The notes beneath the pieces are model-generated. The model made no database searches, was not told the origin of the DNA, and saw only the letters and a list, made by a program, of their open reading frames with translations. A DNA stretch of 64,000 bases from an uncultured Candidatus Saccharibacteria bacterium. Lineage in GTDB: Bacteria > Patescibacteriota > Minisyncoccia > Phycocordibacterales > PALSA-1337. The stretch covers positions 70,163 to 134,162 of the forward strand of contig CAZGUZ010000001.1 in NCBI GenBank assembly GCA_964529025.1. Reading direction: 5' to 3'. The first letter of the stretch is position 1. The number at the start of each line of letters is the position of its first letter. A program made the translations under genes and the position numbers. Of the stretch, positions 23,355-60,771 are shown piece by piece.

Positions 23355-25571
23355 TTATTTGAGTTGGATTGGGTTTCGACCTAGCTTAATTTCTTTAATT
23401 ACATTATCAGCTTTTGTTTTGTCTTCAGTTGAACCATTCTCGAGAACATACGTTGCCTGCGCTAATGCTTTAGATGGATTCTTAAGTATCATTGCCACGC
23501 CAGCGAGCATAAAGCGATATTCACTATTTTGTGGCTGTGCAAGAATAGCTTCATCAAGACCTTGCTCGGCAAGCTTGTACTGTGACTGTGAAATCAATGC
23601 ACCAATAACCCTTCTATCGGTACGTACATCGCCATATTGCTTAACAAGAGTAGTTGCTTGATCGACTTTGTCTGATAGTAATAAAGTGAGCGTATACATC
23701 ACTCGTGCTTCTGGGTACTCTGGTGACATGTCGTATGCTTTCTTTGCTTCAACAACACCAAGATTTTCTTGTCCAAGAGTCATGAATGAAATTGCTTTTT
23801 CAAGATATACAGTGTGTTTTTGTGGGGTGAGCTTTTCCGCAGTTGCAAGTAACTCTAATGCCCTCTCTGCCTGCCCCATACGATTGAGACTAGAAGCAAG
23901 TATTAAATATGGGCGAGCATCCCCTGGTGTATCTTTAATTTGCTCATACATACCATCTACTGCAGCCTGTACAATTTCGCGCTGCTTATCGGCAGGTATT
24001 GCTGGCGATCCTACAATACCTGTAGCACATACAAGAAACTGCTCTCGTGCTTCTTGTCGAGCAACCGGACTAAGCTGTGCAGCCTGGGTAAAATAAAGCG
24101 CATTTGGCTGTCCAGACTGACAAGAGAACAAACCTTTAATGAGCGAGTAATTTGCTCGTAGCGGGTTAACAATTGTTACGTAGGCAAGAATACAAAGGGC
24201 AACAACAACAGCCGGCATAACAATAAGCTCACGAACGTCTTTTTGCTGAGATACAATCGCAAGCTCTGTTAGCTCTTCACCACCAGATAAATAACTTGCG
24301 AGTGATATCATCAAGAAGAACATCAAATAACTTGTATTATTATCAAAAACAAAAACGTTGTGAACCGCATATGCAATAAGGAAACCAATGAGGGCTGCTT
24401 TCTCTGCTGATTTAAGCGATTTAGTTTTGACGACACTTCGCACTACAAAAAAATACAATGATACGTATGCAAGAAAGCCTAGGAAGCCGCCCGCAACAAG
24501 CCAATCAAGAAAGACGCTGTGGGCACGATCAAACCACTGCTCATGGCGCCACATATCTTTAACATAATGAGAGTTGAATACATAGTTGAATCCTTCTTGA
24601 CCCCAACCAAACAGAGGGCGTTCAAGGGCACCCGTAACTGCAATTGGCCAAATATAACCTCGTGCCTGAGTCTTGTTCTCATTCCATGAAATAGAAGTGT
24701 ATCGCTCAAGAATTGGTGGCAATGTAACTATACCTGTTGCACGAACAGTAAATAGCGCCGCAACACCCAAGAACATAGCCGCAATAATACCCAGAATTAT
24801 ATATCGATACCGAGCTGTTTCCTCTTGATTACGATCAAACCAAACATAAGCAATACCGCCAATACATGCAGCAGCTACTAGACCTATCATTGAACCTCGC
24901 GTTGCAGTAAAGAACAGAACGATACCAAAGTTAACAACAAGGAAAGCATAACCGAGATATACTCCAATATTCTTGACCGAACTACCAACAAACATATAAA
25001 ACGTTAAGAATATATGCACAAGCATGTACACAGCCAAATAAGCAGCATTACCGAGTGTCGCATCCAAACGGGTATCGCTTTGGTGAATTTCTGAAAGACC
25101 CCCCAACTGCATGAGTCCCTTATAACAAACCATAACAGCTGCTCCGAGCGAGAAAGCTATGTATCGGCGCCACTCTGCAGCAGTCTTTAAGAGTGAGCTC
25201 AAAGCAATATAGTATAAATACAAATATAGAATAGTAAAGAATCCTTCCATTCGTTCAAAGTTCGAGAAAAATGCCTTAGATGAATTCTCTGCTCCGAATG
25301 AAGAAATGAGTGTAACAACGACGAGTGCAGTTGTTGCATAAAGTATTGAATTCTTTTTGGGCAAAAAAGAATTATCACGAATAGCAAGCAAAGCCCAAGC
25401 ACCAAAGCCAATTGATATACAAAGTCTGAGCCACAACGCTTTTCCAACAATAAATGGAAAGAACAAACTATTCGCGACAAATAGTGGAGTAAATAAAACA
25501 CCAATCAAAGCGGCCGTCGCAATCCATTTTAAAATTGTATTTGTAGAATTCATATGTATGAATAGTAACAA
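23355..25571 (-). CDS. O-antigen ligase (Wzy_C)-family membrane protein with C-terminal TPR repeats
   Basis: 738 aa. About 11 TM helices with a large periplasmic loop are typical of the WaaL/O-antigen ligase family. The C-terminal roughly 280 aa has TPR-like repeats. Confidence 0.65.
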   Translation of the reverse strand: MLLFIHMNSTNTILKWIATAALIGVLFTPLFVANSLFFPFIVGKALWLRLCISIGFGAWALLAIRDNSFLPKKNSILYATTALVVVTLISSFGAENSSKAFFSNFERMEGFFTILYLYLYYIALSSLLKTAAEWRRYIAFSLGAAVMVCYKGLMQLGGLSEIHQSDTRLDATLGNAAYLAVYMLVHIFLTFYMFVGSSVKNIGVYLGYAFLVVNFGIVLFFTATRGSMIGLVAAACIGGIAYVWFDRNQEETARYRYIILGIIAAMFLGVAALFTVRATGIVTLPPILERYTSISWNENKTQARGYIWPIAVTGALERPLFGWGQEGFNYVFNSHYVKDMWRHEQWFDRAHSVFLDWLVAGGFLGFLAYVSLYFFVVRSVVKTKSLKSAEKAALIGFLIAYAVHNVFVFDNNTSYLMFFLMISLASYLSGGEELTELAIVSQQKDVRELIVMPAVVVALCILAYVTIVNPLRANYSLIKGLFSCQSGQPNALYFTQAAQLSPVARQEAREQFLVCATGIVGSPAIPADKQREIVQAAVDGMYEQIKDTPGDARPYLILASSLNRMGQAERALELLATAEKLTPQKHTVYLEKAISFMTLGQENLGVVEAKKAYDMSPEYPEARVMYTLTLLLSDKVDQATTLVKQYGDVRTDRRVIGALISQSQYKLAEQGLDEAILAQPQNSEYRFMLAGVAMILKNPSKALAQATYVLENGSTEDKTKADNVIKEIKLGRNPIQLK

Positions 25572-25602
25572 AAGGAGCGAGTCTATGCTAGAGTAGAATC
25601 AT

Positions 25603-26874
25603 ATGAAAGTACAGGTAATTGGGGTCAAATTCTTACGCTATCTCGAAAAATACACCAAAACTGATATGGTCTACCTTGCAAAAGGTGGTTTTTGGCTGAG
25701 TATAGGCCAAGGAATGGCCATGGTCTCTTCTTTTGCCCTGTCTGTGCTCCTTGCCCGAGCCCTTCCCCAGGAAACATTTGGAACATATAAATTCATTTTG
25801 TCTATTACAAGTATCATTAGCGGCCTATCACTATCTGGTCTTGGAACAGCACTACTTCAGTCGGTTGCTCGAGGTAAGGACGGCACTCTTTTTCTTGCCA
25901 TCCGCACACAACTTATTTGGACAAGCGTTCTTGGTGTGGCTTTTCTTTTGGTGGCAGGTTATTACACACTCAATGATAATTTCATTATTGCCACATCCTT
26001 ACTTATAGCCGGAGCAACCACGCCTTTTGTAAACTGCTTCGGACTCTATGGCTCATTTTTGAGTGGAAAAAAAGATTTTAAACGATCCACCCTTTATTGG
26101 ATAATTAGCCATGTGGTCAACGTCTCAGTTATAGCAATCATTGCGCTTACAACTCACAATGTAATTTACCTTGTTGCCGGATACTTTGTATCACAACTTA
26201 TTACAAGTATTATTTTTTATCGCAGAACAATTTCTTTATATAATCCCAATAAGAATAACAATGATCCGGAAATGATAACGTATGGATCCCACTTAAGTGC
26301 AATTAATATCTTTGGGACAATAGCAAATCAACTTGATAAAATACTTGTCTTTCACTTTGTGGGTGCTGCCCCTCTTGCAGCATATTCGTTTGCGTTTGCA
26401 ATTCCCGAACAAGTTAAAGGGTCACTTAAAAACCTTGTAACTGTTGGTGTCCCGAAGCTTGCAGAACTCGGAGAGGATCATTTACGAAAAAGTTTAGTAG
26501 ATAAGATACTCCGTCTTACCGTAATTTGTGCTGCCATCGTAGTGCTGTACTGGATTACTGCACCGTATATTTTTGCTGTGCTTTTCCCAGCATATATGAA
26601 TGCTGTCTTTTACTCGCAGCTTTATATGGTAGGGCTTATATTTTTCCCTGGAATTTCACTTTTTGCTTTATATTTTCAGCTCATGCAACAAACAGCAGCA
26701 CAATATAAACTCAGCATTATTGGAAACGTGGTTACCATAGTACTCGGCATCATACTCATTGCTCGATATGGTGCACTTGGGGCTGTACTCGAAAACACCC
26801 TTTCATGGAGCATACTCCTACTTATTAATCTTGTATTTTTTATAATACGCGGCTATAAGATTAGAAAAGTATAA
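25603..26874 (+). CDS. Polysaccharide biosynthesis protein / oligosaccharide flippase (MOP superfamily, Wzx-like)
   Basis: 423 aa, about 12 TM helices, typical Wzx architecture. It is the only plus-strand gene in the island. Confidence 0.7.
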   Translation: MKVQVIGVKFLRYLEKYTKTDMVYLAKGGFWLSIGQGMAMVSSFALSVLLARALPQETFGTYKFILSITSIISGLSLSGLGTALLQSVARGKDGTLFLAIRTQLIWTSVLGVAFLLVAGYYTLNDNFIIATSLLIAGATTPFVNCFGLYGSFLSGKKDFKRSTLYWIISHVVNVSVIAIIALTTHNVIYLVAGYFVSQLITSIIFYRRTISLYNPNKNNNDPEMITYGSHLSAINIFGTIANQLDKILVFHFVGAAPLAAYSFAFAIPEQVKGSLKNLVTVGVPKLAELGEDHLRKSLVDKILRLTVICAAIVVLYWITAPYIFAVLFPAYMNAVFYSQLYMVGLIFFPGISLFALYFQLMQQTAAQYKLSIIGNVVTIVLGIILIARYGALGAVLENTLSWSILLLINLVFFIIRGYKIRKV

Positions 26875-27615
26875 TTACTTTTTCTTAAAGACAAAAACGG
26901 TTTCGTGAAATAAACCTCGTGTGCCTGGAATCAAGTTACAACATGTATCAATTATTTTTTGCACAAAAGGAGCAATGGTAGGAATACTCCAAAGCTTCGG
27001 CACAAAAATTCCATATGAGTGTGCTGATTCGATTGAAAAGCCAGCATTAGCGGCCACCTTTTTTATGTGTCTAATTGTTGGGTAAGTATCAAGAAAATCT
27101 ACTCCTTCTTGTCGCAGTTTTCTAACTCGGGCCTCAATAGAATACTTTGCCGCGACGCCGTAAATAAAATAGCCTCCAGATTTTAATTTATTTGAAACAT
27201 GTTCGAACTCATTCTCTAGATCTCCAACATATACTCCAAGCTCAGTCACAATATCGTACTTTTTATCTTGCGCTTCATCCCCTCGTAAAAAATAGTTGAA
27301 TCGAGTGTCTGTAGTCTGCTTTCGTGCTTGTTCAACCATACCTGAGGCAATATCAACAGCATCAATCTGTGCCAAAGCTTTTTGCGTAATCTGATCAAGT
27401 CGGCGCACAACTGAACCGTCAGCGCAACCAATGTCAAAAAGGCTCACCGTGCCCTGCTCTTTAAGACCAAGTACGAGCGGAGCAAATATCTTTTCTACAA
27501 TACCTAATCGTGTACGAAAAATATACTGGGGGTACGACACGAGTTTACCTTCATAGCGCTTTTGAGAATACTGAGAACTTTCTTGAGTGTAATAGCCGGG
27601 AATATCTTTGTGCAT
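26875..27615 (-). CDS. Class I SAM-dependent methyltransferase
   Basis: 246 aa with motif I LFDIGCADGSV and a Rossmann-fold pattern. Confidence 0.75.
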   Translation of the reverse strand: MHKDIPGYYTQESSQYSQKRYEGKLVSYPQYIFRTRLGIVEKIFAPLVLGLKEQGTVSLFDIGCADGSVVRRLDQITQKALAQIDAVDIASGMVEQARKQTTDTRFNYFLRGDEAQDKKYDIVTELGVYVGDLENEFEHVSNKLKSGGYFIYGVAAKYSIEARVRKLRQEGVDFLDTYPTIRHIKKVAANAGFSIESAHSYGIFVPKLWSIPTIAPFVQKIIDTCCNLIPGTRGLFHETVFVFKKK

Positions 27616-27620
27616 ATAAT

Positions 27621-28832
27621 TTATTTATATGTATCATACCAAGAAACTAGTCTTTGTATAAATGCCTCTTGAGAAAATAGTTTTAATGCTGTTTCTTGTG
27701 CTCGTGCAGCTTTACGCTCTGCATCACTTGGATTCCTAAGTACTTCGACAATTGATTGAGATATGAAAGTCACATCAGGATTACCTACGTAGCCCAAATT
27801 ACTATCAATCAACTCTGGGGCACCTCCTCGGTTAGTAACAATAACAGGAACATTCATCATCATTGCTTCAATAATAACAGTTGGTAGTGGGTCAACATAC
27901 TGAGACGGAACAACCACACATAGTGAACGAGCATACACTGATGGCATTTTGTCTCGAGGGAGCCAACCGACGCATTCAAAGCTATCTTGTATAGAATTTT
28001 TTTGAGCATAGCTATTAATCTTTTTCTGCTCAACTTCCGACACACCCACAAGGAGTAACTTTATCTGAGGAAATATTTTGCGAACATCAGACAAAGCCTG
28101 TATAGCAATATAGATTCCTTTTGCTGCCGATGCCCTTCCTCCGAATAATACATACTGAACATCATTGTTTAGTGAGAACTCTTTATTAAGTTCTTCAACT
28201 GTTTTTCTGTCGCGACTCACCTGGCCAAATTTATTTGTATTAATTCCATTATGAATTACACGCTCAACTACCAGACCATTTTCTTCGAGCACTTGCTTAA
28301 GTGCATTACTAACCGCAGCAACTTTTACTTTACAAAGACAATAGCGAATTAATAACTCACGAAATGGATTCCACGTATGTCGAGAAGAAACAAATCTTTC
28401 ACGTAAGGTAATTGTGTGATTATGAGTAACTTTTGATGGGAAAACGGACATTGCATCATGTGCAGTAAAGAATGTTGGCGCCACTTTTTGTGCCAAACAG
28501 CAAACTGCAAAAGAGAAATGTGTGTGAACATTATGAATATGAATTACTCGAGGAGACTCTTGTTTCAAGATCTTACGCACTTTCATGAGCATACTTATAT
28601 TTAAAACTCCGATCCACTGACGAAATACGTCTGGATATGAACTATATATTTTAATTATTTTAACTCCTCCTTGTTCAAAAGTTCCCTCATCTTTTTTATG
28701 ATTACAACGCGTAAGAACAGTGACAGAATATCCATGTGTCACTAAACCTTCTGCATGCTCTGCTGCAATAGCACCCGCTCCCCCTGTAACAATTGGAGGG
28801 TAGTCATCAGTAATAATACAAATTTTATTCAT
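27621..28832 (-). CDS. GT4-family (GT-B) glycosyltransferase
   Basis: 403 aa. The N-terminal sugar-acceptor domain (ICIITDDYPPIVTGGAGAIAAEHAEGL) and a C-terminal Glycos_transf_1 domain with the E..E motif region (VVPSQYVDPLPTVIIEAMMMNVPVIVT) are present. Confidence 0.8.
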   Translation of the reverse strand: MNKICIITDDYPPIVTGGAGAIAAEHAEGLVTHGYSVTVLTRCNHKKDEGTFEQGGVKIIKIYSSYPDVFRQWIGVLNISMLMKVRKILKQESPRVIHIHNVHTHFSFAVCCLAQKVAPTFFTAHDAMSVFPSKVTHNHTITLRERFVSSRHTWNPFRELLIRYCLCKVKVAAVSNALKQVLEENGLVVERVIHNGINTNKFGQVSRDRKTVEELNKEFSLNNDVQYVLFGGRASAAKGIYIAIQALSDVRKIFPQIKLLLVGVSEVEQKKINSYAQKNSIQDSFECVGWLPRDKMPSVYARSLCVVVPSQYVDPLPTVIIEAMMMNVPVIVTNRGGAPELIDSNLGYVGNPDVTFISQSIVEVLRNPSDAERKAARAQETALKLFSQEAFIQRLVSWYDTYK

Positions 28833-28833
28833 A

Positions 28834-29484
28834 CTATTTCTTTTGTATCACACAAGCCCAACCAATTGCATGCTTACGATTTGCAGTTGAAGTATTTATA
28901 GAATCGAGCTTAAGAGCTAGTTTACCGGCAATAAGAGCAAACTTACCAAATACCCTTCCTAAAATCTTTCGCTGGTGCAAGTGCAGCGAATCCATACAGT
29001 ATCGTATAAAAATCTGTGAGATTACACAAAAGAAGCCTCCACGTTGATTCATTTCTACAATAGAAAAACCGGCATCTTCGAAAATGCGTTTGAGGCCAAA
29101 CGATGTATATCTAAAGTAATCATGGGGCTCTTCATGAAGCTCATTCATTTGTGGGACTGTAACAAGAGCATAGCCACCTTTTTTAAGGACTCTTGCCATT
29201 TCTTGTGCCCCCAAATCGGGATAACGAATATGTTCAAACACTTGCGTACACACAATTGAATCAACAGAATTTGCTTCGAGTGGAATCTTATCAACGCTAC
29301 CAACCAAATCAACTGTATCTGCATGTGCCACATCCATGCGAATCATCTTTTGAACATTAAATAGCTTTCCGTATCTATTATAATGACCAGCACCAACATC
29401 AAGACAAGTACCTTTTACATAATGAGAAAACTTTTGTACTTGTTCAAGTAAAATATGTCGATCTGGTTGAAAAATGTATGTCAT
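28834..29484 (-). CDS. Class I SAM-dependent methyltransferase (Methyltransf_11-like)
   Basis: 216 aa with motif I CLDVGAGHYNRYG and an acidic motif II. Confidence 0.75.
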   Translation of the reverse strand: MTYIFQPDRHILLEQVQKFSHYVKGTCLDVGAGHYNRYGKLFNVQKMIRMDVAHADTVDLVGSVDKIPLEANSVDSIVCTQVFEHIRYPDLGAQEMARVLKKGGYALVTVPQMNELHEEPHDYFRYTSFGLKRIFEDAGFSIVEMNQRGGFFCVISQIFIRYCMDSLHLHQRKILGRVFGKFALIAGKLALKLDSINTSTANRKHAIGWACVIQKK

Positions 29485-29487
29485 AAA

Positions 29488-31231: not shown

Positions 31232-31272
31232 AAGTAAATTAAGTATACGCTACCCCTAAGGCAAAACAAGTC

Positions 31273-35506: not shown

Positions 35507-35507
35507 A

Positions 35508-43421: not shown

Positions 43422-43424
43422 AAA

Positions 43425-44420: not shown

Positions 44421-44424
44421 ATTG

Positions 44425-45489
44425 TTACTCTATAGTATAGCCCAAACCGCATCGTTCGCACACATTACGCAGTACATACCGCATACGGGCCGCAGATGAA
44501 TGGTGTTTAATTAAATCTGAGTATGCCCTACGATAGTCCTCTTGTGATACCTTGTTTGCCCTTACAAGCAGCATCTTGAGTTTTTCATCAATATCGAGCC
44601 CTGAAGAAAACTCTGCGTATAACTCTTGTGGCAAACCTATTTCATCAGGAAAATTAATATCAATTTTTTGCGTAAGCAAGAGTGCCCCTGATCCTAGAAT
44701 TTCCCAGAAGCGCGCAGTATCAAATCCTCCTCCACTGATCGAAATTCCAACGCGCGCATTTGCCAACTTTTTATAAAATCTCCATCGTGACAAAAAACTA
44801 TTTGGCGAAAGAAAAGGTAGTTTAGTTGATGTGTTCCACACACGAAGACTCCCTTGTGCCTTAATCATTTCGACATATGAAGCAATAAGTTCTCGTAGCG
44901 GTGGGTACTTTCTTTGTCCAAAGACAGAGATAATATCATACGATCTTTCTTTTAAATTTTTATCTAAAGAGTATTTCGTATAAGCTCTTTCAATTCCATA
45001 CGGCAATGGCAATACACCTTTGACATAAGGTTTTTCTCTCCTAAAGTACGCAACACAGCGTTTGAGCATATCAGTATTAATTGCACCCTGCTCTTGGTAA
45101 GAGCCCTGCTCAACTTTTTGAACAATCTGCGGCTCAAGTCGTTTATTGTGACCGAGCTCAGAACCATCAATGTAAGCAGTAATGTTATAGCGCCCAATTA
45201 TATCTACGAGTTCTTTATGATCATGAACTTTGCCCCAGCAATACAAAATAACATCGGCAGATCGAGCAAATTTAATAAAATTATCATCATTGAGCTCATG
45301 GCATGAAATGCCAAAGTGCCGCGGATTACCACTCGTATACTTAACGTCTTTCACTATTCCATCTATTCGAAGCTGTTCTAAACCATCGACAACCGTGCGG
45401 ACAAGGTAGTCTTCTTTTCCACCCGGCGTAATAACAGCAATAGTAATTTGAGTATTATTCATACCTCTATTATAGCAATTTAAGCCCAA
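44425..45489 (-). CDS. Hypothetical protein, possible GT-B-like glycosyltransferase (CgeB/DUF3880-like)
   Basis: 354 aa. The C-terminal ...RVGISISGGGFDTARFWEILGSGALLLTQ... resembles the nucleotide-sugar-binding end of GT-B enzymes. Support is weak. Confidence 0.3.
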   Translation of the reverse strand: MGLNCYNRGMNNTQITIAVITPGGKEDYLVRTVVDGLEQLRIDGIVKDVKYTSGNPRHFGISCHELNDDNFIKFARSADVILYCWGKVHDHKELVDIIGRYNITAYIDGSELGHNKRLEPQIVQKVEQGSYQEQGAINTDMLKRCVAYFRREKPYVKGVLPLPYGIERAYTKYSLDKNLKERSYDIISVFGQRKYPPLRELIASYVEMIKAQGSLRVWNTSTKLPFLSPNSFLSRWRFYKKLANARVGISISGGGFDTARFWEILGSGALLLTQKIDINFPDEIGLPQELYAEFSSGLDIDEKLKMLLVRANKVSQEDYRRAYSDLIKHHSSAARMRYVLRNVCERCGLGYTIE

Positions 45490-46564
45490 GGCTATTTTGG
45501 TGATTTAAACGATCGATACTATTCTTTACCTGCTCGGGCGAACACAATGGAACTACAGCGCCGCGAGCTGCAGCACCGAGCTCTCGCCTTTTTCGATAAT
45601 CTTGTGCCAGCAATCGAATACTCTGAGCTAAAGCTTGATGATTACCCGATGGAACTCCAGTAATACTTTTTTCGGGAGTAAATATTTCTCGCAGAGCACT
45701 CGTGTCTGCACTAATAATAGCCTTCCCCATTGCTGCATATTCATAAACTTTATTAGGAATTACACGCTGTGTTTTTTCTGTATCTCCAAAAATTCCCAAG
45801 CAAATATCACTTTGAGCAATGTAGGCAGGTAGCTCAGTATAAGGAACTCGTTCAATAAAATGTGCCGATTCTACGCCGAGCTCGTGCGCAAGCTGTACCA
45901 TTGAGTTCTTAGTATTGCCCCTTCCAATAATTGTGCATACGATTTTTATATCCTTAAGCAGTGCCAATGCTCGAATAATAGTATCGATGCCTTGCAACGG
46001 AATATAGCTTCCATGAAAATGAATTCTTATTACGTGCTCATCATTATGATTTGATACTATTTGGCCGTACTTATTAGAATCAAAAATCTCAAGATCGGTT
46101 CCAACATAGAGCGGTGCAATTTTATTCACACTCACGCTAAAAGTGTTCGCAAAAAACAGTGCATGCTCTACTGTATCGGTAATAATTGCATGGGCACAAT
46201 GTACAGAAACGTAATCGTACACATAATCCCTTATAGCACGGAGACTCCAGCGTGAATATAATTTTCTATCAAATACATTAGAATCGTAGAGCGAAGTAAA
46301 AGCGTCAAAAATAACAGGGCAAGAAAAAAGTAGTCGAGCAAGTGGCACCACGGTCTGACCAGGAAAAGCAACCCATACAAAATCAAAGGCGTTTTCTACT
46401 TGCAGTTTACGAACTTTTTTAACTAATTCAACATACTTTGATACACCAGATTTTCGAGGATCCACACAACATTCAACTACCTCACCCAACTGTGACAAAC
46501 CTTTTATAACAAATTGATTTCTTGGGTAATGAGCATCGTATATTCCAATGAGGCAGATTTTCAT
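45470..46564 (-). CDS. GT4-like (GT-B) glycosyltransferase
   Basis: 364 aa. The C-terminal region is ...KVYEYAAMGKAIISADTSALREIF... (E-x7-E-like). Confidence 0.65.
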   Translation of the reverse strand: MKICLIGIYDAHYPRNQFVIKGLSQLGEVVECCVDPRKSGVSKYVELVKKVRKLQVENAFDFVWVAFPGQTVVPLARLLFSCPVIFDAFTSLYDSNVFDRKLYSRWSLRAIRDYVYDYVSVHCAHAIITDTVEHALFFANTFSVSVNKIAPLYVGTDLEIFDSNKYGQIVSNHNDEHVIRIHFHGSYIPLQGIDTIIRALALLKDIKIVCTIIGRGNTKNSMVQLAHELGVESAHFIERVPYTELPAYIAQSDICLGIFGDTEKTQRVIPNKVYEYAAMGKAIISADTSALREIFTPEKSITGVPSGNHQALAQSIRLLAQDYRKRRELGAAARGAVVPLCSPEQVKNSIDRLNHQNSLGLKLL

Positions 46565-46569
46565 ATGCT

Positions 46570-47616
46570 TTATGAAAGTTGGGCTATTATTTTGTGTATC
46601 ATGTGATCCAAATTTGATAGCTTTGAGACTGAATTGTATAAAGAGTCTGTGTATTTTTCAACCGGTTCTCCTCCATTCCATACCCACACTAGTTCCTGTG
46701 CAATCTTCTGTATATCACTTAAAGAAACGATGTGTTCTGTATGACCACTAAAGTACTCTTTAAATGCCGTATTTGCAACTACCACAGGCACTCGTGCAGC
46801 CATACTTTCAAGCACAGCTTTATCCAAACCGCCTGGCGGACAAAGGTTTACAGAAACATGCGACTGATAAAGCTCGGATGTGAGCTCAGAATTCTTTATT
46901 GCTCCTCTCCACTTAACTCGATCTTGAATACCTTTTGCAAGAATCAGCTCTTTCAATTTGTTCAGGTATTCAAAATCACTTTCAAGAACAGGCGCTCCCA
47001 CAATATGTAATTCATAATTTATCTGAGCGGGTAATAAACTTGCAGCTTCAATAAGAATATCGATATTTTTAATTGGAGTAATTCTTCCGACGGTAATTAT
47101 TTTAAATAGCTGTGGTTGCGAAACAACTTTAAGTTGAGGCCGAGAGAATTTATCGAGTGGCACAGACTGCCCCATATAATTAACCTTATGTGACGGCAGA
47201 TTAAAACTTTCTGGTGTAGCGGTAAAAACCTTATCGACAAGCATGTGTGCAAGTCGCAATTTAAAATCAACTGAACGGTGCACATACCACAAGGCCAACT
47301 TTTTATTAAAAATCTTTGCCCAAGGAAAACTAAAGACTGCATACCAAGGACTCATGTGTGCGAAAATAGCATCGTACTCGGTTCGGTATTTTGATAAGAA
47401 ATACACCAAACGAGCCATATACTTAAAGCGACTCTTACCCTTTTCTTTTCCAAGACTTACAACCTTAACATTATGAGGAAGGTCGTAGGCTCCGACTTCG
47501 AGTGAAATGACAATTACTTGTTCGCACTCACGAGAAAACCGAATTAGCCAATCGTGAAAAAAGGCAAAGTAACTATCATTCTTATCGACTTTCTGTGTCA
47601 GGATGAGTAACTTCAT
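46570..47616 (-). CDS. GT4-family (GT-B) glycosyltransferase
   Basis: 348 aa with a Glycos_transf_1 C-terminus ...GGLDKAVLESMAARVPVVVAN.... Confidence 0.75.
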   Translation of the reverse strand: MKLLILTQKVDKNDSYFAFFHDWLIRFSRECEQVIVISLEVGAYDLPHNVKVVSLGKEKGKSRFKYMARLVYFLSKYRTEYDAIFAHMSPWYAVFSFPWAKIFNKKLALWYVHRSVDFKLRLAHMLVDKVFTATPESFNLPSHKVNYMGQSVPLDKFSRPQLKVVSQPQLFKIITVGRITPIKNIDILIEAASLLPAQINYELHIVGAPVLESDFEYLNKLKELILAKGIQDRVKWRGAIKNSELTSELYQSHVSVNLCPPGGLDKAVLESMAARVPVVVANTAFKEYFSGHTEHIVSLSDIQKIAQELVWVWNGGEPVEKYTDSLYNSVSKLSNLDHMIHKIIAQLS

Positions 47617-48136
47617 GCTGAGTATTTGTAAAGATTAAAAACTTATAAACAAAGAAAGAAACGAAAGCCACAGTAAATGCAGCCATAAACTGAGCAGCAA
47701 CCACTGGCCGAATATTAAGTACTGCAAACGTAAGAATATCTCCCCCTTGAGCAAACCACTCAGCGAATGACTTACCCGAAACACCCAGCTCCATGAGAGC
47801 TATCACGATAGCAGTATTAAGCAAAAGATTCATTACCGAAACAATAAAATACTTTGCCACTTGTTTATGAGCTTCTGTACCTTGAGTACGATCCTGGAAT
47901 GTCCAATACTTTTGGAGTGAATAGCTAACGCCAAAAGCGGTTAAAAAAGCAATGTTAACGCTCACTACATAGAAAAGCTTTGTATATGAATCAAGAATAT
48001 GCACGAGGCCCAAATTAACAACAGCTGCTGTTCCTCCGGATACAACATACTTGAATATCATCACTCGGGCTTTATAGAGAGTGGCACAAGCTGAACGCAT
48101 TTTAACTTTCAACGAGACCGTATTCTGAGTATCCAT
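47582..48136 (-). CDS. GtrA-family small membrane protein
   Basis: 184 aa with four TM helices. The N-terminal ...YVVSGGTAAVVNLGLVHIL... is typical of GtrA-like proteins associated with polyprenyl-phosphate sugar pathways. Confidence 0.65.
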   Translation of the reverse strand: MDTQNTVSLKVKMRSACATLYKARVMIFKYVVSGGTAAVVNLGLVHILDSYTKLFYVVSVNIAFLTAFGVSYSLQKYWTFQDRTQGTEAHKQVAKYFIVSVMNLLLNTAIVIALMELGVSGKSFAEWFAQGGDILTFAVLNIRPVVAAQFMAAFTVAFVSFFVYKFLIFTNTQHEVTHPDTESR

Positions 48137-50296
48137 TTAATTAGTTTTATTCTTCGACAGATTAAGTATACTATTCGCCATCTTTTTCACAATATCCTGT
48201 TCATTTTCTTCATCAAAAACAAAAACCTTATCGGGCTTTTCAAGGGCAAGTTCTTCGGCAATGCCAACCTTGGTAGTTATGAGCGGAATACCTATATAGG
48301 CAGCTTCGGCAAGTACCAAGCCATATCCTTCGTACAAAGAGGTACTGATTACGTAATCAGCTTTCTTGTAGTAATCAAATACGTATGCAGTAAAGCCAAC
48401 AAAAGCAACATCATTTTGAATACCTAATTCTTGTGCTTTTTGTTTAAGACTCTGTTCTAAAGAACCTGAACCAACAATAGTGAGTTTATTTTTGACTCCA
48501 TTTTGTATGAGCTCATGCGCAATAGCTAATGCCATGTGTACTCTTTTTTCTGACTCTAAGCGTGCAATTACTAAAAGTTGTAGTGGCTCGTCTTGTTTTT
48601 TTCTGAGCTCTTTTTGTTGTTCAAGCCAAATCTCTCTTTCGTGTCGTACTGCATCAAGAGCAACGACATCTACTTCTATAGGACGTACCACTATTCGATC
48701 TGCCGAAACACCCATATTCTTAATTAAGAATCTTTTAAGTGTATGCGAAACAACTCTAATATGAGTAGCGCAACGAATTATGATTTGTGAACATACATAA
48801 CGCAACCAATTGAGTTGAGAGTGTTCCCTAAAATGCACACTCGATAAGTCAGTATGTAATTGCACTTCAAAAACAAGTTGTGACTGATTGCCAAAAATAA
48901 GATTCCGCATGCTCATAATTACGTATACAATGAGACCTACCACTCCTGTTTCAAAAGGATCTTGGCAAGTTATCTTTGTTGGAATAGGCCTTTGAGCAGC
49001 AACAATGATTGCATCAAGAACGTATAAAAACTTCGAGCTCGACTGTGTTGAGTACACCGTACAGCGCTCGCTTAAAATTAAAGGCTTACGTTGCTTACCT
49101 TGTGAAAAGACAATAATATCAAGGTCTGACATATTCTCTGCATACTGAATGTGACGAAGTGCAACTTTAGAAGATTCCTCAAGTAAATTTCTATCAGTCG
49201 AAATCATAAGACATCGCTCACCCCGAGTATGGTGCAAAGAAAACTGAGTATGAACGACAGCAGTACGAATAATGTCTTGTGCAACATTTTTCCAATCCCT
49301 CTTTTCTTTTATTTTATACTGCTCCGCTCGAGCACAAGCCTCTGCATAGCCTTGCGGAGAAGCAAGAGCCGTGAGCGCATTCGCAATACTCTGAACATTC
49401 ATAGGGTCCACAACTGTTACATAAGGTCGAATCTTATCGAGGATTCCGCACTCTTCGGTAACGATACAAGGTTTGCCATACGACAATGCCTCAAGAATCA
49501 TATTAGGACTAATATCGCCTAAAGAAACTTGTGCAACCACATATGCAGTTTGCATTTTTCTATGTGCTTCGTCTTTTTTAAGCGGACCGAACAGAACATC
49601 CATTTCAGGGTATTGCTGCCGCACCGCATTAACTGCCTTTTGTAAAACATCGTTATTCTTCCAAACAAGAGGACGCGTTACTGCATATACAACTTTAGAT
49701 GTTGTTCTATCACTCACCATCTGCTCCACCCCACTCACACCTTGCACTAAAGCGTTATCAATAACAGTTACATGTTTAAGGCGAGCCAAACCATAAGGGC
49801 CCGTAAATATATTTTTTTGCCACTCTGTGCTAAAAGCAACAACATCGGCACATCTATATGAAAACTTTATCAGTTCAAAGATTATTTTTTCTTTGATATT
49901 TAAGTACGGGAGCTCGGTTGCATAAAAGTTTCTCAGTAATACCTTTTTGCGAGTTCTTTCAACATACCCTTCCCATAAAAAATCTCCACCTGTGCGAATG
50001 ATAGATGGCACACCAAGAATTTTAGCCGCTACGACAGCAGGAACAGCGGCGCTAAACGTATCAACAACAATAGCGATATCTGCCCCTCGAAGGAGCATTA
50101 ATGTTTTCCAAAAATATACAAGGTGTCGTATTCCAATAGGAAGAGATCTTTCATAGGTAAAAGTAGCAATTGCCACATTGTGACCTTGTTCACGATATAC
50201 TTTTTCAATTTCTGAAGAATAGAGAGCCGGACCACCTGTATGAGGTGGATATATTCCTGTTGCAATAACAATTGAATATTTAGGCTCGTTGTTCAT
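48137..50296 (-). CDS. Tandem double GT4 glycosyltransferase fusion
   Basis: 719 aa. Two complete GT-B units are present. The first starts IVIATGIYPPHTGGPALY and ends ...ILEALSYGKPCIVTE. The second ends ...STSLYEGYGLVLAEAAYIGIPLITTKVG. Confidence 0.75.
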   Translation of the reverse strand: MNNEPKYSIVIATGIYPPHTGGPALYSSEIEKVYREQGHNVAIATFTYERSLPIGIRHLVYFWKTLMLLRGADIAIVVDTFSAAVPAVVAAKILGVPSIIRTGGDFLWEGYVERTRKKVLLRNFYATELPYLNIKEKIIFELIKFSYRCADVVAFSTEWQKNIFTGPYGLARLKHVTVIDNALVQGVSGVEQMVSDRTTSKVVYAVTRPLVWKNNDVLQKAVNAVRQQYPEMDVLFGPLKKDEAHRKMQTAYVVAQVSLGDISPNMILEALSYGKPCIVTEECGILDKIRPYVTVVDPMNVQSIANALTALASPQGYAEACARAEQYKIKEKRDWKNVAQDIIRTAVVHTQFSLHHTRGERCLMISTDRNLLEESSKVALRHIQYAENMSDLDIIVFSQGKQRKPLILSERCTVYSTQSSSKFLYVLDAIIVAAQRPIPTKITCQDPFETGVVGLIVYVIMSMRNLIFGNQSQLVFEVQLHTDLSSVHFREHSQLNWLRYVCSQIIIRCATHIRVVSHTLKRFLIKNMGVSADRIVVRPIEVDVVALDAVRHEREIWLEQQKELRKKQDEPLQLLVIARLESEKRVHMALAIAHELIQNGVKNKLTIVGSGSLEQSLKQKAQELGIQNDVAFVGFTAYVFDYYKKADYVISTSLYEGYGLVLAEAAYIGIPLITTKVGIAEELALEKPDKVFVFDEENEQDIVKKMANSILNLSKNKTN

Positions 50297-51512
50297 TGTT
50301 TCGTAATTTTGGTTCAGGCTGAATCATTACCGCATCCAAAACTTTCGTCTTAAATGATTGAGCAACTGTAGACCAATTATACTGCTTATGCACCATTTCA
50401 TATCCTGAAACAACAACCTTGCGGCGGAGCTTCTGGTCGTGAATATAAAGCTCGATACATTCAGCAACACTCTCGGGCGAATCAATTTCAGCAAAGATGC
50501 CAGTTACTCCATCGGTAAGAAAATCAGGGATACCGCCAATATTTGTTGCAATAACAGGCAAACCTGCAGCCATTGCTTCTAAGAAAGAATTGCCAAGCCC
50601 TTCTGATCTTGATGGTCGCGCAAAAATATCTGCAGCTTGCAAATATGCAGCCATTTCTTCGTGAGGAATTTGACCCAAGAATTTTACTCTATGCTGAACT
50701 TTTTTAAGAGCCGCTCTTTGTTTAAGCTCGGTTTCGAGTTCACCTGAACCAAGAATTGCAAGGTGTACATGCTCTGGCAAATACACGAGCGAATCAATAA
50801 GCGTATCAATGCCATTCTTATGTGTAAGTCGTGATGTAGTAATAACACATACACTTGTTGGCTTTTTATTCATCGCCTCTGCTGCTCGAGCAATATTTGA
50901 AGCAGAAACCGGAGCGGAAATAACCGAGACATCAACACCATTAGGAACCACTTCAACCGGACACAGAGCGCCCATAGTACCAGCAAAACGCTTAAGAAAA
51001 TTTGATATGGCATGCACACGACTTGCTCGTGCAAAAATCTTTCTAAAGAGTGGGTACACGGGTTTCATTTGGCGAACAATTTCTTCTATTGGAATTCCCT
51101 CTTGCAAAGTCACAACATACTTAGGTAGTGGATATATATACGTAAAAAGTACCGAAGCCAAACCAGCATATGCTGCCATTATGCTCCACACGATATCGTA
51201 TGAGTTTTTCTTATGGAGCTTAAGTGCTTCGATAAAAGCAAGTGGTACGTACAAGATTTTACTTACCAAAGAAAGGGTTGAACCATTTTCAAGGGGCTCA
51301 AGTTTAGTGTAGAGCCATGGAATACCAATACGGTACACATTAACTGCACCGATCTTTTCATAAGCAGGATCACCTGCCCCACGAAGAGTTATCATGTCAA
51401 AAGAATATTCCTCTTCAGGAATTCTTTGAGTAATTTCACGAACAGCAACTTCTGCCCCGCCAATATAACGAGGATAGTATGCAAGAGAAAAAATCAGTAC
51501 TTTTCGGGCCAT
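50280..51512 (-). CDS. GT4-family (GT-B) glycosyltransferase
   Basis: 410 aa. N-terminus VLIFSLAYYPRYIGGAEVAVREI and C-terminus ...PSRSEGLGNSFLEAMAAGLPVIATNIGGIPD.... Confidence 0.8.
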   Translation of the reverse strand: MARKVLIFSLAYYPRYIGGAEVAVREITQRIPEEEYSFDMITLRGAGDPAYEKIGAVNVYRIGIPWLYTKLEPLENGSTLSLVSKILYVPLAFIEALKLHKKNSYDIVWSIMAAYAGLASVLFTYIYPLPKYVVTLQEGIPIEEIVRQMKPVYPLFRKIFARASRVHAISNFLKRFAGTMGALCPVEVVPNGVDVSVISAPVSASNIARAAEAMNKKPTSVCVITTSRLTHKNGIDTLIDSLVYLPEHVHLAILGSGELETELKQRAALKKVQHRVKFLGQIPHEEMAAYLQAADIFARPSRSEGLGNSFLEAMAAGLPVIATNIGGIPDFLTDGVTGIFAEIDSPESVAECIELYIHDQKLRRKVVVSGYEMVHKQYNWSTVAQSFKTKVLDAVMIQPEPKLRNNEQRA

Positions 51513-60064: not shown

Positions 60065-60090
60065 TTTCATTCTGTAACAGCACACATTGT

Positions 60091-60765: not shown

Positions 60766-60771
60766 ATTTAT

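What the first reader, a model, noticed from the sequence alone, without database searches (positions are those of the whole stretch)
23355..51512. 28-kb translationally coupled glycosylation island with unusually high methyltransferase content
An almost uninterrupted minus-strand block of about 25 genes, many with ATGA/4-nt overlaps, forms the island. It holds nine or more GT-B (GT4/GT9) enzymes, two GT2, two GT-C membrane transferases, YfhO-like, exostosin-like, GtrA, a Wzx-like flippase, an O-antigen-ligase/TPR protein and AsnB. It also holds five SAM-methyltransferase domains: 26875-27615, 28834-29484, 29488-30141, 43425-44420, and the C-terminus of 38095-39708. This density of O-methylation capacity, plus an amidotransferase, suggests a heavily methylated, possibly amidated, surface glycan or glycoprotein system. 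It is probably lineage-specific.
Basis: partly seen in the sequence, partly recalled or inferred. Interest (0 to 1): 0.6.

Follow-up and report, generated by a model that had tools for sequence, protein, structure and literature searches.

The report
Methyltransferase-rich surface-glycan operon of a Patescibacterium
This is a real, tightly packed 28-kb gene cluster that very probably builds a methylated sugar coat in an uncultured ultra-small bacterium (Patescibacteria); it is conserved in a few relatives and resembles known bacterial glycan and protein-glycosylation clusters, so it is an interesting but not surprising new example.

Summary
Coordinates 23355-51512 carry 22 genes, and 18 pass Pfam's curated cut-offs. 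They include five class-I SAM methyltransferase domains at the stated coordinates, six GT4 proteins (seven domains), GT9, GT47, two GT2, GtrA, AsnB, Wzx (on the plus strand) and a Wzy_C+TPR protein.

Two details are overstated. Only two junctions are true ATGA overlaps, and the gene count is 22, not about 25.

The window is from a Patescibacterium (Paceibacteria/Parcubacteria). The island is not unique. A colinear cluster with 30-56% protein identity and at least seven methyltransferases occurs in a distant relative, and partial versions occur in about 12 GTDB species. No characterised locus is syntenic with it.

My best reading is a hybrid pathway. An oligosaccharide is assembled and methylated on the cytoplasmic side, flipped by Wzx, and transferred by a WaaL-fold Wzy_C enzyme whose TPR domain lies outside the cell. 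Sugars are also added outside from polyprenyl-phosphate donors (GT2, GtrA, three GT-C/YfhO enzymes). The acceptor is unproven; I favour surface proteins.

I file it as a new variant of a known kind, of moderate interest.

The parts
50280..51512 (-). GT4 glycosyltransferase. It is the first gene of the GT block.
   Evidence: Pfam Glycos_transf_1 at 129.9 bits, plus Glyco_transf_4.
48137..50296 (-). Two-module GT4 glycosyltransferase (719 aa).
   Evidence: Glycos_transf_1 matches in two stretches. Glyco_transf_4 covers residues 31-182, and Glyco_trans_4_4 plus Glycos_transf_1 cover 480-709.
47582..48136 (-). GtrA-family small membrane protein. It is a putative flippase for polyprenyl-phosphate sugars.
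   Evidence: PF04138 at 62.7 bits. Homologues of the island's GT2 domain occur fused to GtrA.
46570..47616 (-). GT4 glycosyltransferase.
   Evidence: Glyco_trans_1_4 at 66.7 bits. 39% identical to its L003 orthologue.
45470..46564 (-). GT4 glycosyltransferase.
   Evidence: Glycos_transf_1 at 68.3 bits.
44425..45489 (-). Conserved protein of uncertain family. It may be a GT-B C-terminal half. The ATG at 45462 is the likelier start.
   Evidence: Glyco_trans_1_2 at 21.7 bits, below the cut-off of 25. No PDB hit and no hhalign signal. A 37%-identical orthologue sits at the same position in L003.
43425..44420 (-). Class-I SAM methyltransferase with an N-terminal Cys-rich segment and a C-terminal hydrophobic helix.
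   Evidence: Methyltransf_23 at 71.5 bits. The motif DIGASNG and the sequence are shown. There is a weak match to the sugar C-methyltransferase TcaB9.
42339..43421 (-). Exostosin-like (GT47) glycosyltransferase.
   Evidence: PF03016 at 47.6 bits, above the cut-off of 33.4. Orthologues in L003 and L006 are also GT47.
40823..42502 (-). PMT_2-type GT-C membrane glycosyltransferase. The true start is probably downstream of 42502.
   Evidence: About 12 hydrophobic segments. 35% identical to the L006 protein that carries PF13231 PMT_2. It has no direct Pfam or PDB hit of its own.
39705..40838 (-). GT4 glycosyltransferase.
   Evidence: Glycos_transf_1 at 76.3 bits.
38095..39708 (-). Fusion of a Ppm/DPMS-like GT2 (residues 1-223) with a class-I SAM methyltransferase (residues 318-474).
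   Evidence: Pfam GT2 at 103 bits and Methyltransf_23 at 85 bits. The best PDB match is Pyrococcus dolichol-phosphate mannose synthase 5mlz, E 1.7e-26. About 70 full-length fusion homologues exist, and every named one is from Patescibacteria.
36452..38098 (-). Divergent GT-C membrane glycosyltransferase of a small family seen only in Patescibacteria among named hits.
   Evidence: Only 9 word-index homologues and 272 cluster representatives among 1.84 billion. D38 and E39 after TM1 are invariant. All of the top 12 Foldseek hits for the AF2 model (pTM 0.76) are GT-C enzymes. Remote relatives belong to PMT_2, and some homologues are fused to GT2.
35508..36452 (-). GtrB/ArnC-type GT2 with C-terminal TM helices. 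It is a polyprenyl-phosphate sugar synthase.
   Evidence: Pfam GT2 at 115.6 bits. TM segments at residues 232-295. Full-length alignments to ArnC (190 bits) and PgfS (146 bits), both below the equivalog cut-offs.
33575..35506 (-). AsnB-type glutamine-dependent amidotransferase.
   Evidence: Asn_synthase at 316.9 bits plus GATase_7. TIGR01536 at 478 bits, above its cut-off of 267. TIGR03108 (the EPS-associated type) at 518 bits, below its cut-off of 817. The N-terminus reads MCGI.
31273..33609 (-). YfhO-like membrane glycosyltransferase.
   Evidence: PF09586 at 24.4 bits, below the cut-off of 28.5. About 10 TM segments. The orthologues in L003 and L006 carry YfhO.
30113..31231 (-). GT9 (heptosyltransferase-family) glycosyltransferase.
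   Evidence: PF01075 at 68.5 bits. It scores below every LPS heptosyltransferase equivalog cut-off.
29488..30141 (-). Small class-I SAM methyltransferase. The ATG at 30111 is the likely start.
   Evidence: Methyltransf_11 at 51.4 bits. 60% identical to an L006 protein. It is a paralogue of 28834-29484 at 34% identity.
28834..29484 (-). Small class-I SAM methyltransferase.
   Evidence: Methyltransf_11 at 44.4 bits. 56% identical to its L003 orthologue.
27621..28832 (-). GT4 glycosyltransferase.
   Evidence: Glycos_transf_1 at 99.6 bits plus Glyco_transf_4.
26875..27615 (-). Class-I SAM methyltransferase.
   Evidence: Methyltransf_23 at 32.2 bits, above the cut-off of 27. 38% identical to its L003 orthologue.
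25603..26874 (+). MOP-family (Wzx-like) flippase, inverted relative to the rest of the cluster.
   Evidence: Polysacc_synt at 73.1 bits. The same inverted position next to Wzy_C-TPR is seen in L005 and L013.
23355..25571 (-). WaaL-fold Wzy_C enzyme with 13 TM helices and an extracytoplasmic C-terminal TPR superhelix. The likely start is 25553, giving 732 aa.
   Evidence: Wzy_C at 66.7 bits plus TPR matches. The AF2 model has pLDDT 86.6. The only membrane-protein fold match is WaaL 7tpg, E 3.9e-5, TM-score 0.64. The extra TM13 is at residues 443-462. More than 2,568 homologues, and every named one is from Patescibacteria.
22728..23354 (-). GDSL/SGNH hydrolase with an N-terminal hydrophobic segment. 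It may be a glycan O-acyl esterase or transferase. Whether it belongs to the system is uncertain.
   Evidence: Lipase_GDSL_2 at 77.3 bits. It has a 0-nt gap to the Wzy_C-TPR gene. It is not conserved in the related loci.

Best explanation
The island is the surface-glycan assembly operon of a Patescibacterium (Paceibacteria/Parcubacteria). This is a cell type expected to have a single membrane and no LPS. The operon encodes a hybrid pathway with four stages.

1. **Assembly inside.** Eight or nine GT-B enzymes (GT4, GT9, GT47) build a complex oligosaccharide on a polyprenyl carrier at the inner face of the membrane. Class-I SAM methyltransferases methylate it, and an AsnB-type amidotransferase probably amidates a carboxyl group.
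2. **Flipping.** The Wzx-like flippase moves the product across the membrane.
3. **Transfer.** A WaaL-fold Wzy_C enzyme transfers it to an extracellular acceptor. The enzyme's TPR domain lies outside the membrane. I think the acceptor is most likely Ser, Thr or Tyr residues of surface proteins, as with the Gram-positive S-layer O-oligosaccharyltransferase WsfB and with PglL.
4. **Decoration outside.** In parallel, two Ppm/ArnC-like GT2 enzymes make polyprenyl-phosphate monosaccharides; one of them is fused to a methyltransferase. GtrA flips these donors, and three membrane transferases (a new PMT_2-related GT-C, a PMT_2-type GT-C, and a YfhO-like protein) add the sugars outside the cell.

The enzyme families, folds, gene order and conservation are shown. 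The substrates, the order of steps, sugar O-methylation and the nature of the acceptor are inferred.
For: **Families and layout.**
- The genes are operon-like, with gaps of 41 nt or less. Two strong terminator-like hairpins on the minus strand, at 53566-53540 and 21343-21307, bound the block.
- The organism is inferred from two lines. The flanks carry SecA, GatB, Obg, MurB, MraY and Mur ligase. Every named homologue is from Patescibacteria, Paceibacterota or Parcubacteria.
- The same genes occur in the same order in L003 at 30-56% identity, and partly in L005-L018. So this is one selected unit.

**The outside branch.**
- GT2 35508-36452 aligns end to end with ArnC and PgfS and has C-terminal TM helices.
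- The GT2 domain of the fusion matches archaeal dolichol-phosphate mannose synthase at E 1.7e-26.
- Close homologues of that GT2 domain are fused to GtrA, to PMT/PMT_2, or to the 548-aa GT-C family. These are Rosetta-stone links.
- The 548-aa protein is GT-C by three tests: fold, the invariant DE pair after TM1, and profile links to PMT_2.

**The terminal enzyme.**
- It has the WaaL fold plus a 13th TM helix that places the TPR domain outside.
- It is conserved at 34-40% identity over its full length across thousands of Patescibacteria sequences, while the glycosyltransferase content varies. That pattern fits a general transferase better than a repeat-unit-specific polymerase.

**Precedents.**
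- WsaB and WsfB carry Wzy_C. WsfB and PglL carry C-terminal TPR. The P. alvei S-layer glycosylation cluster has an AsnB homologue, and WsaE fuses a methyltransferase to glycosyltransferases (PMC2943079).
- The T. forsythia O-glycan cluster has wzx, five Gtf, three Mtf and asnB in 27 kb (PMC6120980).
Against: - No priming phosphoglycosyltransferase is present in the window. The only PF00953 protein (58940-60064) is MraY, sitting beside a Mur ligase. No such family recurs in the related loci either.
- No glycoprotein substrate (S-layer protein or pilin) is recognisable in the window.
- No methyltransferase has a close characterised relative. Sugar O-methylation rests on context alone.
- The fold match of the 548-aa protein is moderate: E 5e-3 at best, TM-scores 0.37-0.49.
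- Single-membrane status and lack of LPS come from general knowledge of Patescibacteria. They were not tested on this genome.
- Nothing separates ligase from polymerase activity for a Wzy_C domain on sequence alone.
Confidence: 0.6

Rival explanations
1. This is a Wzx/Wzy-dependent heteropolysaccharide locus for a capsule, EPS or wall-linked polymer. The Wzy_C-TPR protein is the repeat-unit polymerase, and the product is a methylated polysaccharide rather than a protein-linked glycan.
For: Wzx and a Wzy_C-domain protein lie side by side. There are many cytoplasmic glycosyltransferases. A DUF4015 glycoside-hydrolase-like gene lies 2.4 kb upstream. Related loci carry dTDP-sugar and amino-sugar genes typical of polysaccharide loci.
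Against: The window has no chain-length regulator (Wzz/PCP), no LCP ligase and no priming transferase. The Wzy_C-TPR protein is conserved over its full length across more than 2,500 Patescibacteria sequences whatever the glycosyltransferase content; Wzy polymerases normally co-vary with the repeat unit (general knowledge). Its only membrane fold match is the ligase WaaL. Nine or more cytoplasmic glycosyltransferase modules is a lot for one repeat unit.
Confidence: 0.25
2. This is a lipoglycan pathway of the mycobacterial LM/LAM type. GT4 enzymes glycosylate a membrane glycolipid anchor in the cytoplasm. After flipping, GT-C enzymes extend it outside from polyprenyl-phosphate mannose. No Und-PP priming step is needed.
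For: No priming phosphoglycosyltransferase was found. The GT2 enzymes are Ppm/DPMS-like. There are three GT-C-type enzymes, two of them PMT_2-related. Foldseek hits include PimE, EmbC, AftA and AftD.
Against: A Wzx flippase and a WaaL-fold transferase are conserved parts of the locus, and an LM/LAM-type route does not need them. PMT_2 relatives point equally to protein O-mannosylation. Foldseek cannot tell GT-C subfamilies apart at TM-scores of 0.3-0.5.
Confidence: 0.1
3. The clustering has no functional meaning. Unrelated glycosyltransferase and methyltransferase genes, or several separate pathways, simply sit side by side, and the methyltransferases act on non-glycan substrates.
For: The methyltransferases hit only generic class-I models such as UbiG and BioC, well below their cut-offs. 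Glycosyltransferase content differs among the related loci.
Against: The genes are colinear with L003 for about 17 genes at 30-56% identity, and the methyltransferases keep their positions between the same glycosyltransferases. One methyltransferase is physically fused to a GT2, and that fusion is conserved in about 70 cluster representatives. Intergenic gaps are 41 nt or less. Two methyltransferases have C-terminal hydrophobic helices, which fits action on lipid-linked substrates.
Confidence: 0.05

Closest known systems
S-layer protein O-glycosylation (slg) clusters of Paenibacillus alvei and Geobacillus stearothermophilus (WsfB/WsaB O-oligosaccharyltransferases)
   Same: - The host has a single membrane.
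- The terminal enzyme carries a Wzy_C domain, and WsfB has a C-terminal TPR.
- The cluster holds an AsnB homologue (WsfA).
- A methyltransferase domain is fused to glycosyltransferase domains (WsaE).
- The oligosaccharide is assembled on a lipid carrier.

All of this is from PMC2943079.
   Different: - Those clusters encode their own priming transferase (WsaP/WsfP) and sugar-nucleotide genes. G. stearothermophilus exports through an ABC transporter.
- Here there is no priming enzyme and no nucleotide-sugar genes, and export is by a Wzx-type flippase.
- This island has five methyltransferase domains. It also has an added branch of GtrA, GT2 and three GT-C-type enzymes.
Tannerella forsythia general protein O-glycosylation cluster (27 kb; wzx, gtfSMILE, mtfJOY, asnB)
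   Same: The size is similar and the cluster is polycistronic. It combines a Wzx flippase, five glycosyltransferases, three SAM methyltransferases and an AsnB-type amidotransferase. Its product is a methylated complex O-glycan on S-layer and other proteins (PMC6120980).
   Different: - The host is a diderm of the Bacteroidota.
- That cluster includes pseudaminic-acid and ManNAcA biosynthesis genes.
- It has no GT-C or GtrA branch, and no Wzy_C-TPR gene inside the cluster.
- No orthology with this island was demonstrated.
Three-component extracytoplasmic glycosylation systems (GtrA/GtrB/GtrC; CsbB-GtcA-YfhO; ArnC/ArnT; PgfS-PgfM)
   Same: All three component types are present and adjacent here. 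There is a GT2 with C-terminal TM helices that aligns end to end with ArnC and PgfS, a GtrA-family protein, and GT-C/YfhO transferases.
   Different: - Here three GT-C-type enzymes and two GT2 enzymes are embedded in a much larger cytoplasmic assembly operon.
- One GT2 lacks TM helices and is fused to a methyltransferase.
- One GT-C belongs to a small, undescribed family with 272 cluster representatives among 1.84 billion.
WaaL O-antigen ligase (PDB 7tpg)
   Same: The Wzy_C domain is present. WaaL is the best membrane fold match (E 3.9e-5, TM-score 0.64 on the target). The Arg and His residues of the WFDRAHS loop are invariant in the family alignment.
   Different: This protein has an extra 13th TM helix and a TPR domain of about 250 aa outside the membrane. 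The host lineage is not expected to make lipid A-core, which is WaaL's acceptor (general knowledge, not tested here).

Membership tests
Wzx/Wzy-dependent O-antigen or capsule pathway | MOP-family Wzx flippase | tested here: met
   25603-26874: Polysacc_synt at 73.1 bits and Polysacc_synt_3 at 57.8 bits.
Wzx/Wzy-dependent O-antigen or capsule pathway | Priming polyprenyl-phosphate phosphoglycosyltransferase (WbaP/PglC or WecA type) | tested here: not met
   No Bac_transf hit in any window gene scanned. The only PF00953 protein matches mraY at 177 bits against wecA at 44 bits, and it sits next to a Mur ligase. No such family recurs in the related loci. A copy could still lie elsewhere in the genome.
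Wzx/Wzy-dependent O-antigen or capsule pathway | Chain-length regulator (Wzz/PCP), and export or ligation machinery (OPX, or LCP in monoderms) | tested here: not met
   None was found among the 52 window genes scanned against Pfam.
Wzx/Wzy-dependent O-antigen or capsule pathway | Wzy repeat-unit polymerase activity | not testable with these tools
   A Wzy_C domain is present, but sequence cannot separate polymerase, ligase and O-oligosaccharyltransferase. The fold match is to the ligase WaaL.
Protein O-glycosylation with a Wzy_C-type O-oligosaccharyltransferase (PglL/PilO/WsfB) | Membrane enzyme with a Wzy_C domain, often with a C-terminal TPR | tested here: met
   Wzy_C at 66.7 bits, with TPR at residues 540-713. 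The AF2 model and topology place the TPR outside the membrane. The TPR precedent is in PMC2943079.
Protein O-glycosylation with a Wzy_C-type O-oligosaccharyltransferase (PglL/PilO/WsfB) | Demonstrated glycoprotein acceptor | not testable with these tools
   No S-layer or pilin gene is recognisable in the window. This needs glycoproteomics.
Gtr-type three-component extracytoplasmic glycosylation | GT2 polyprenyl-phosphate sugar synthase, plus a GtrA-family protein, plus a GT-C or YfhO transferase | tested here: met
   35508-36452 matches ArnC and PgfS over its full length and has C-terminal TM helices. GtrA scores 62.7 bits. The GT-C and YfhO proteins are covered. Fusion proteins in homologues link the three.
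GT-C glycosyltransferase superfamily (for 36452-38098) | Polytopic membrane protein with a conserved acidic motif in the first extracytoplasmic loop | tested here: met
   12-14 hydrophobic segments. D38 and E39 are invariant in 9 homologues.
GT-C glycosyltransferase superfamily (for 36452-38098) | GT-C fold or profile similarity | tested here: met
   All of the top 12 Foldseek PDB hits are GT-C enzymes (DPY19, ArnT, Pmt4, EmbC, AftA and others). The best E is only 4.8e-3, with TM-scores of 0.37-0.49. Profile hits at E 1e-21 to 1e-13 are PF13231 PMT_2 proteins. There is no direct Pfam or NCBIfam hit.
Class-I SAM-dependent methyltransferases (five domains) | Rossmann-like methyltransferase domain with SAM-binding motif I | tested here: met
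   All five score above the Pfam cut-offs. Motif I variants are present in all five.
Sugar O-methyltransferases | Demonstrated or orthology-supported action on a sugar hydroxyl group | tested here: inconclusive
   No equivalog matched. The nearest solved structures are generic methyltransferases, UbiG, or the sugar C-3 methyltransferase TcaB9 at E 1e-4. Only gene context supports a glycan substrate.
LPS heptosyltransferases (GT9) and LPS core pathway | Scores above the equivalog cut-offs for WaaC, WaaF or WaaQ | tested here: not met
   30113-31231 scores 60, 54 and 52 bits against cut-offs of 185, 135 and 170. It is a member of the GT9 family only.

The most novel reading that the evidence does not exclude
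The conserved trio is a Ppm/DPMS-like GT2, a fused or adjacent SAM methyltransferase, and a GT-C of a family seen so far only in Patescibacteria. On this reading it forms a dedicated module. The module makes a methylated polyprenyl-phosphate sugar and transfers the already methylated sugar onto a surface glycoconjugate outside the cell. Delivering O-methyl sugars this way has not been described in bacteria. The widely conserved Wzy_C-TPR enzyme would then be the general protein O-oligosaccharyltransferase of Patescibacteria, decorating the pili or S-layer that mediate attachment to host cells.
Probability: 0.15. Interest if true: 0.65.

Novelty: new variant of a known kind. Interest (0 to 1): 0.38.

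Why it matters
Patescibacteria are abundant, mostly uncultured, ultra-small bacteria that live attached to other microbes. How their surface is built, and how they recognise hosts or evade phages, is almost unknown.

This locus gives a concrete parts list for a complex methylated surface glycan that is conserved in several relatives. It offers three handles for experiments:
- the widely conserved Wzy_C-TPR transferase;
- the Ppm-like GT2-methyltransferase fusion;
- a small, undescribed branch of the GT-C superfamily.

I found no paper in the searched library that links an 'O-antigen ligase' to Parcubacteria or the candidate phyla radiation.

The general logic is well known from other bacteria, though: cytoplasmic assembly, Wzx flipping, a Wzy_C transferase, and Gtr-type decoration outside the membrane. 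The value is therefore descriptive and enabling rather than conceptual.

Tried and rejected
- **Exact look-up of SecA.** It found nothing, probably because my longest-ORF start differs from the called gene. I found the source through the 548-aa protein instead.
- **Pairwise BLASTP among the three large membrane proteins.** No similarity, so they are not recent paralogues.
- **Profile of the 548-aa family against PDB sequences.** No meaningful hit. Only the fold search and the exhaustive profile search linked it to GT-C.
- **Gene 44425-45489.** The PDB sequence search and hhalign against the island's GT4 families gave nothing, so 'GT-B' remains unconfirmed for this gene.
- **Gene 40823-42502.** It has no direct Pfam or PDB hit even at E of 10 or 1. 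Its GT-C assignment rests on its orthologue.
- **MraY-family gene at 58940-60064 as the missing priming enzyme.** I rejected this. It matches mraY far better than wecA and lies in a mur cluster.
- **Mobile-element or phage origin for the island.** I rejected this for three reasons. The GC dip is only about 2 points. No tRNA or Rfam element flanks it. The chromosomal neighbourhood is conserved.
- **Literature searches for a description of this locus in CPR or Parcubacteria.** They returned nothing specific.
- **Cluster-member look-up.** It gave no organism names.

Full report
**1. The observation**

ORF listing and junction analysis show 21 consecutive minus-strand genes from 51512 down to 26875, with no intergenic gap above 41 nt. 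A plus-strand gene (25603-26874) follows, ending stop-to-stop against the last minus-strand gene. The minus-strand gene 23355-25571 comes next. That is 22 genes in the claimed interval.

Pfam places 18 of them above the curated cut-offs.
- Six are GT4 proteins; 48137-50296 carries two GT4 modules.
- The remaining assignments are GT9, GT47/exostosin, two GT2, GtrA, an AsnB-type amidotransferase, a MOP/Wzx flippase and a Wzy_C+TPR protein.

All five methyltransferases keep a SAM motif I, and AsnB keeps its N-terminal Cys.

Only two junctions are true ATGA overlaps, plus one TAATG. 'Many ATGA overlaps' is therefore overstated, although the packing is extremely tight.

None of the 30 flanking genes scanned carries a class-I methyltransferase. 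My hypergeometric arithmetic for 5 in 22 against 0 in 30 gives p of about 0.01. Island GC is 0.389, against 0.406 and 0.421 in the flanks.

**2. The three unassigned membrane proteins**

*36452-38098 (548 aa, 12-14 hydrophobic segments).* It has no Pfam, NCBIfam or PDB sequence hit.
- It has only nine word-index homologues among 5.8 billion proteins. An exhaustive profile search finds 272 cluster representatives among 1.84 billion.
- The family alignment has an invariant Asp-Glu pair right after TM1. This is the hallmark position of the GT-C catalytic acidic motif (general knowledge).
- An AF2 model (pTM 0.76) gives only GT-C enzymes as its top 12 Foldseek hits: DPY19, ArnT, Pmt4, EmbC, AftA, Pmt1/2, ALG3, AftD and PimE. 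The scores are modest, with best E of 4.8e-3 and TM-scores of 0.37-0.49.
- The weaker profile hits are PF13231 PMT_2 proteins.
- I conclude that it is a divergent, small branch of the ArnT/PMT-like GT-C enzymes.

*40823-42502.* It is 35-37% identical to positional orthologues, one of which carries PMT_2.

*31273-33609.* It is sub-threshold for YfhO here, but its orthologues pass.

Only 44425-45489 remains unassigned.

**3. Source and conservation**

The flanks are housekeeping genes: L25, TGT, GatB, Obg, SecA, MurB, MraY and a Mur ligase. Every named homologue of the island proteins comes from Patescibacteria, Paceibacterota, Parcubacteria or Kaiserbacteria. Identical proteins occur in metagenome assemblies.

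The island is not a one-off.
- In GCA_040384245.1 (L003) about 17 genes are colinear at 30-56% protein identity. There the GT2 and methyltransferase are split into two genes, and at least seven methyltransferases are present.
- A scan of one genome per GTDB species found the 548-aa family in only 12 of 185,579 species, all Patescibacteria.
- The surrounding loci repeat the same elements in varying combinations: GT2 with or without methyltransferase, then GT-C, then GT2 with TM helices; GT47 followed by PMT_2; an inverted Wzx next to Wzy_C-TPR. In the relatives, sugar-nucleotide genes are added.
- In four loci Wzy_C-TPR is followed by MurB and/or SecA, the same neighbourhood as here.

This is the behaviour of a chromosomal glycan locus at a fixed site with variable content. 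No characterised locus is syntenic with it, and no paper in the library describes it.

**4. Mechanism: the extracytoplasmic branch**

- GT2 35508-36452 aligns end to end with ArnC (190 bits) and PgfS (146 bits) and has C-terminal TM helices.
- The GT2 half of the GT2-methyltransferase fusion matches Pyrococcus dolichol-phosphate mannose synthase at E 1.7e-26. Its GT2-only relatives are named polyprenol monophosphomannose synthase.
- Homologues of this GT2 domain are found fused to GtrA, to PMT/PMT_2 and to the 548-aa GT-C family. These Rosetta-stone fusions tie together the synthase, the flippase and the GT-C enzymes.
- Together with GtrA, this is the well-known three-component scheme of Gtr, CsbB/GtcA/YfhO and ArnC/ArnT. 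Here it is present with two synthases and three transferases.
- The GT2-methyltransferase fusion itself is common in Patescibacteria, with about 70 full-length cluster representatives at 40-52% identity. In 8 of 13 distinct loci a methyltransferase sits between the GT2 and the GT-C. This raises the untested possibility that the lipid-linked sugar is methylated before transfer.

**5. Mechanism: the terminal enzyme**

- The Wzy_C-TPR protein is modelled with high confidence (pLDDT 86.6).
- Its only membrane fold match is the O-antigen ligase WaaL (7tpg, E 3.9e-5, TM-score 0.64). The C-terminal third matches TPR superhelices such as that of OGT.
- It has a 13th TM helix (residues 443-462) after the 12-helix WaaL-like core. 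Given WaaL's known topology, this puts the TPR domain outside the cell, on the side of the catalytic loop (inference).
- The family is very large, with more than 2,568 hits, and is conserved at 34-40% identity over its full length. Invariant Arg and His residues lie in a WFDRAHS loop.
- A Patescibacterium is not expected to have lipid A-core (general knowledge, not tested here). A classical ligase role is therefore unlikely.
- The conservation pattern argues against a repeat-unit-specific Wzy polymerase.
- The closest precedent is the Gram-positive S-layer O-oligosaccharyltransferases. WsaB and WsfB carry Wzy_C, and WsfB and PglL carry a C-terminal TPR. The P. alvei cluster even has an AsnB homologue, and WsaE fuses a methyltransferase to glycosyltransferases (PMC2943079).
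- The T. forsythia O-glycan cluster (27 kb; wzx, five Gtf, three Mtf, asnB) is a second close analogue in composition (PMC6120980).

**6. What is missing or uncertain**

- No priming phosphoglycosyltransferase is present in the window. The PF00953 gene is MraY, and none recurs in the related loci.
- No Wzz/PCP or LCP gene is present.
- No acceptor protein is recognisable.
- The methyltransferases have no characterised close relatives, so O-methylation of sugars is contextual inference.
- The choice among protein, polysaccharide and lipoglycan acceptors therefore stays open. I give about 0.6 to the hybrid pathway with a protein acceptor as stated, 0.25 to a Wzy-polymerised polysaccharide, 0.1 to a lipoglycan route and 0.05 to coincidental clustering. 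The underlying claim that this is one surface-glycan assembly unit deserves more, roughly 0.85-0.9.

**7. Boundaries**

Two strong terminator-like hairpins on the minus strand, at 53566-53540 and 21343-21307, bracket a 32-kb block with nothing comparable in between.

The block includes:
- on the upstream side, a HerA/VirD4-like ATPase (51522-53474), 9 nt from the first GT4 gene;
- on the downstream side, a GDSL/SGNH hydrolase (0-nt gap), a PD-(D/E)XK nuclease and DoxX.

Only the SGNH hydrolase has a plausible glycan role (O-acyl handling). None of these genes is conserved with the cluster, except that a HerA-like gene is also adjacent in L014.

**8. Verdict**

The locus is a new variant of a well-known kind of system.

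Its distinctive points are:
- the methyltransferase load (five here, at least seven in a relative);
- the Ppm-like GT2-methyltransferase fusion;
- a small GT-C family seen so far only in Patescibacteria;
- the use of a WaaL-fold, TPR-bearing transferase in a lineage that should lack LPS.

Interest is moderate (0.38).

Noticed in passing
window 51522-53474 (-): A P-loop ATPase related to VirD4, TraD and HerA (T4SS-DNA_transf, TrwB_AAD_bind, DUF87). It has no TM helices and a long Gln/Pro-rich low-complexity C-terminal tail. It ends 9 nt upstream of the first GT4 gene and lies inside the same terminator-bounded block. A homologue also sits next to the glycosyltransferase cluster in L014. Its role is unknown.
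   Followed up: partly
window 53566-53540 (-) and 21343-21307 (-): Two strong terminator-like hairpins (12 and 17 paired bases) bracket a 32-kb minus-strand block. It also takes in the ATPase, the GDSL hydrolase, a PD-(D/E)XK/Cas4-like nuclease (21851-22705) and DoxX (21364-21834).
   Followed up: partly
window 25603-26874 (+): The Wzx gene is inverted inside an otherwise one-directional cluster. It lies stop-to-stop with the methyltransferase gene at 26875 and about 30-50 nt from the divergent Wzy_C-TPR start. Transcription reading through on the minus strand would be antisense to wzx. The same inverted Wzx/Wzy_C-TPR pair occurs in L005 and L013.
   Followed up: partly
window 53891-55051 (-): A DUF4015 'putative glycosyl hydrolase' (324.7 bits) lies just upstream of the block. 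One related locus also has a DUF4015 gene. It could process a polysaccharide.
   Followed up: no
window 22728-51512, upstream regions of the genes: The 25 nt upstream of the island's start codons show no Shine-Dalgarno-like GGAGG motif and are A/T-rich. I did not analyse this further.
   Followed up: no
window 28834-29484 and 29488-30141 (-): The two small tandem methyltransferases are 34% identical to each other. They are the best-conserved island proteins across genomes, at 56-60% identity to orthologues in L003 and L006. Most of the glycosyltransferases are only 30-40% identical.
   Followed up: partly
P0023, P0027, P0033, P0057, P0086, P0031; P0324, P0367, P0391, P0392, P0395-P0397: Natural fusion proteins occur in other metagenomic sequences: GT2 with the 548-aa GT-C family, GT4 with that GT-C, GT2 with GtrA, GT2-methyltransferase with GtrA, and GT2 with PMT/PMT_2.
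   Followed up: partly
window 58940-62253 (+): This is a cell-wall gene group. MraY (177 bits, just under the equivalog cut-off of 192) is followed by an overlapping ORF with a weak ATE_C (aminoacyl-tRNA transferase-like) match and then a Mur ligase. Two upstream ORFs (56745-58085 and 58118-58909) have no family assignment.
   Followed up: no
window 43425-44420 (-): This methyltransferase has an N-terminal Cys-rich, zinc-ribbon-like segment (CHVCGC...CTGC) and a C-terminal hydrophobic helix. It weakly resembles the zinc-containing sugar C-3 methyltransferase TcaB9. It could therefore act on a nucleotide sugar rather than on the assembled glycan.
   Followed up: no
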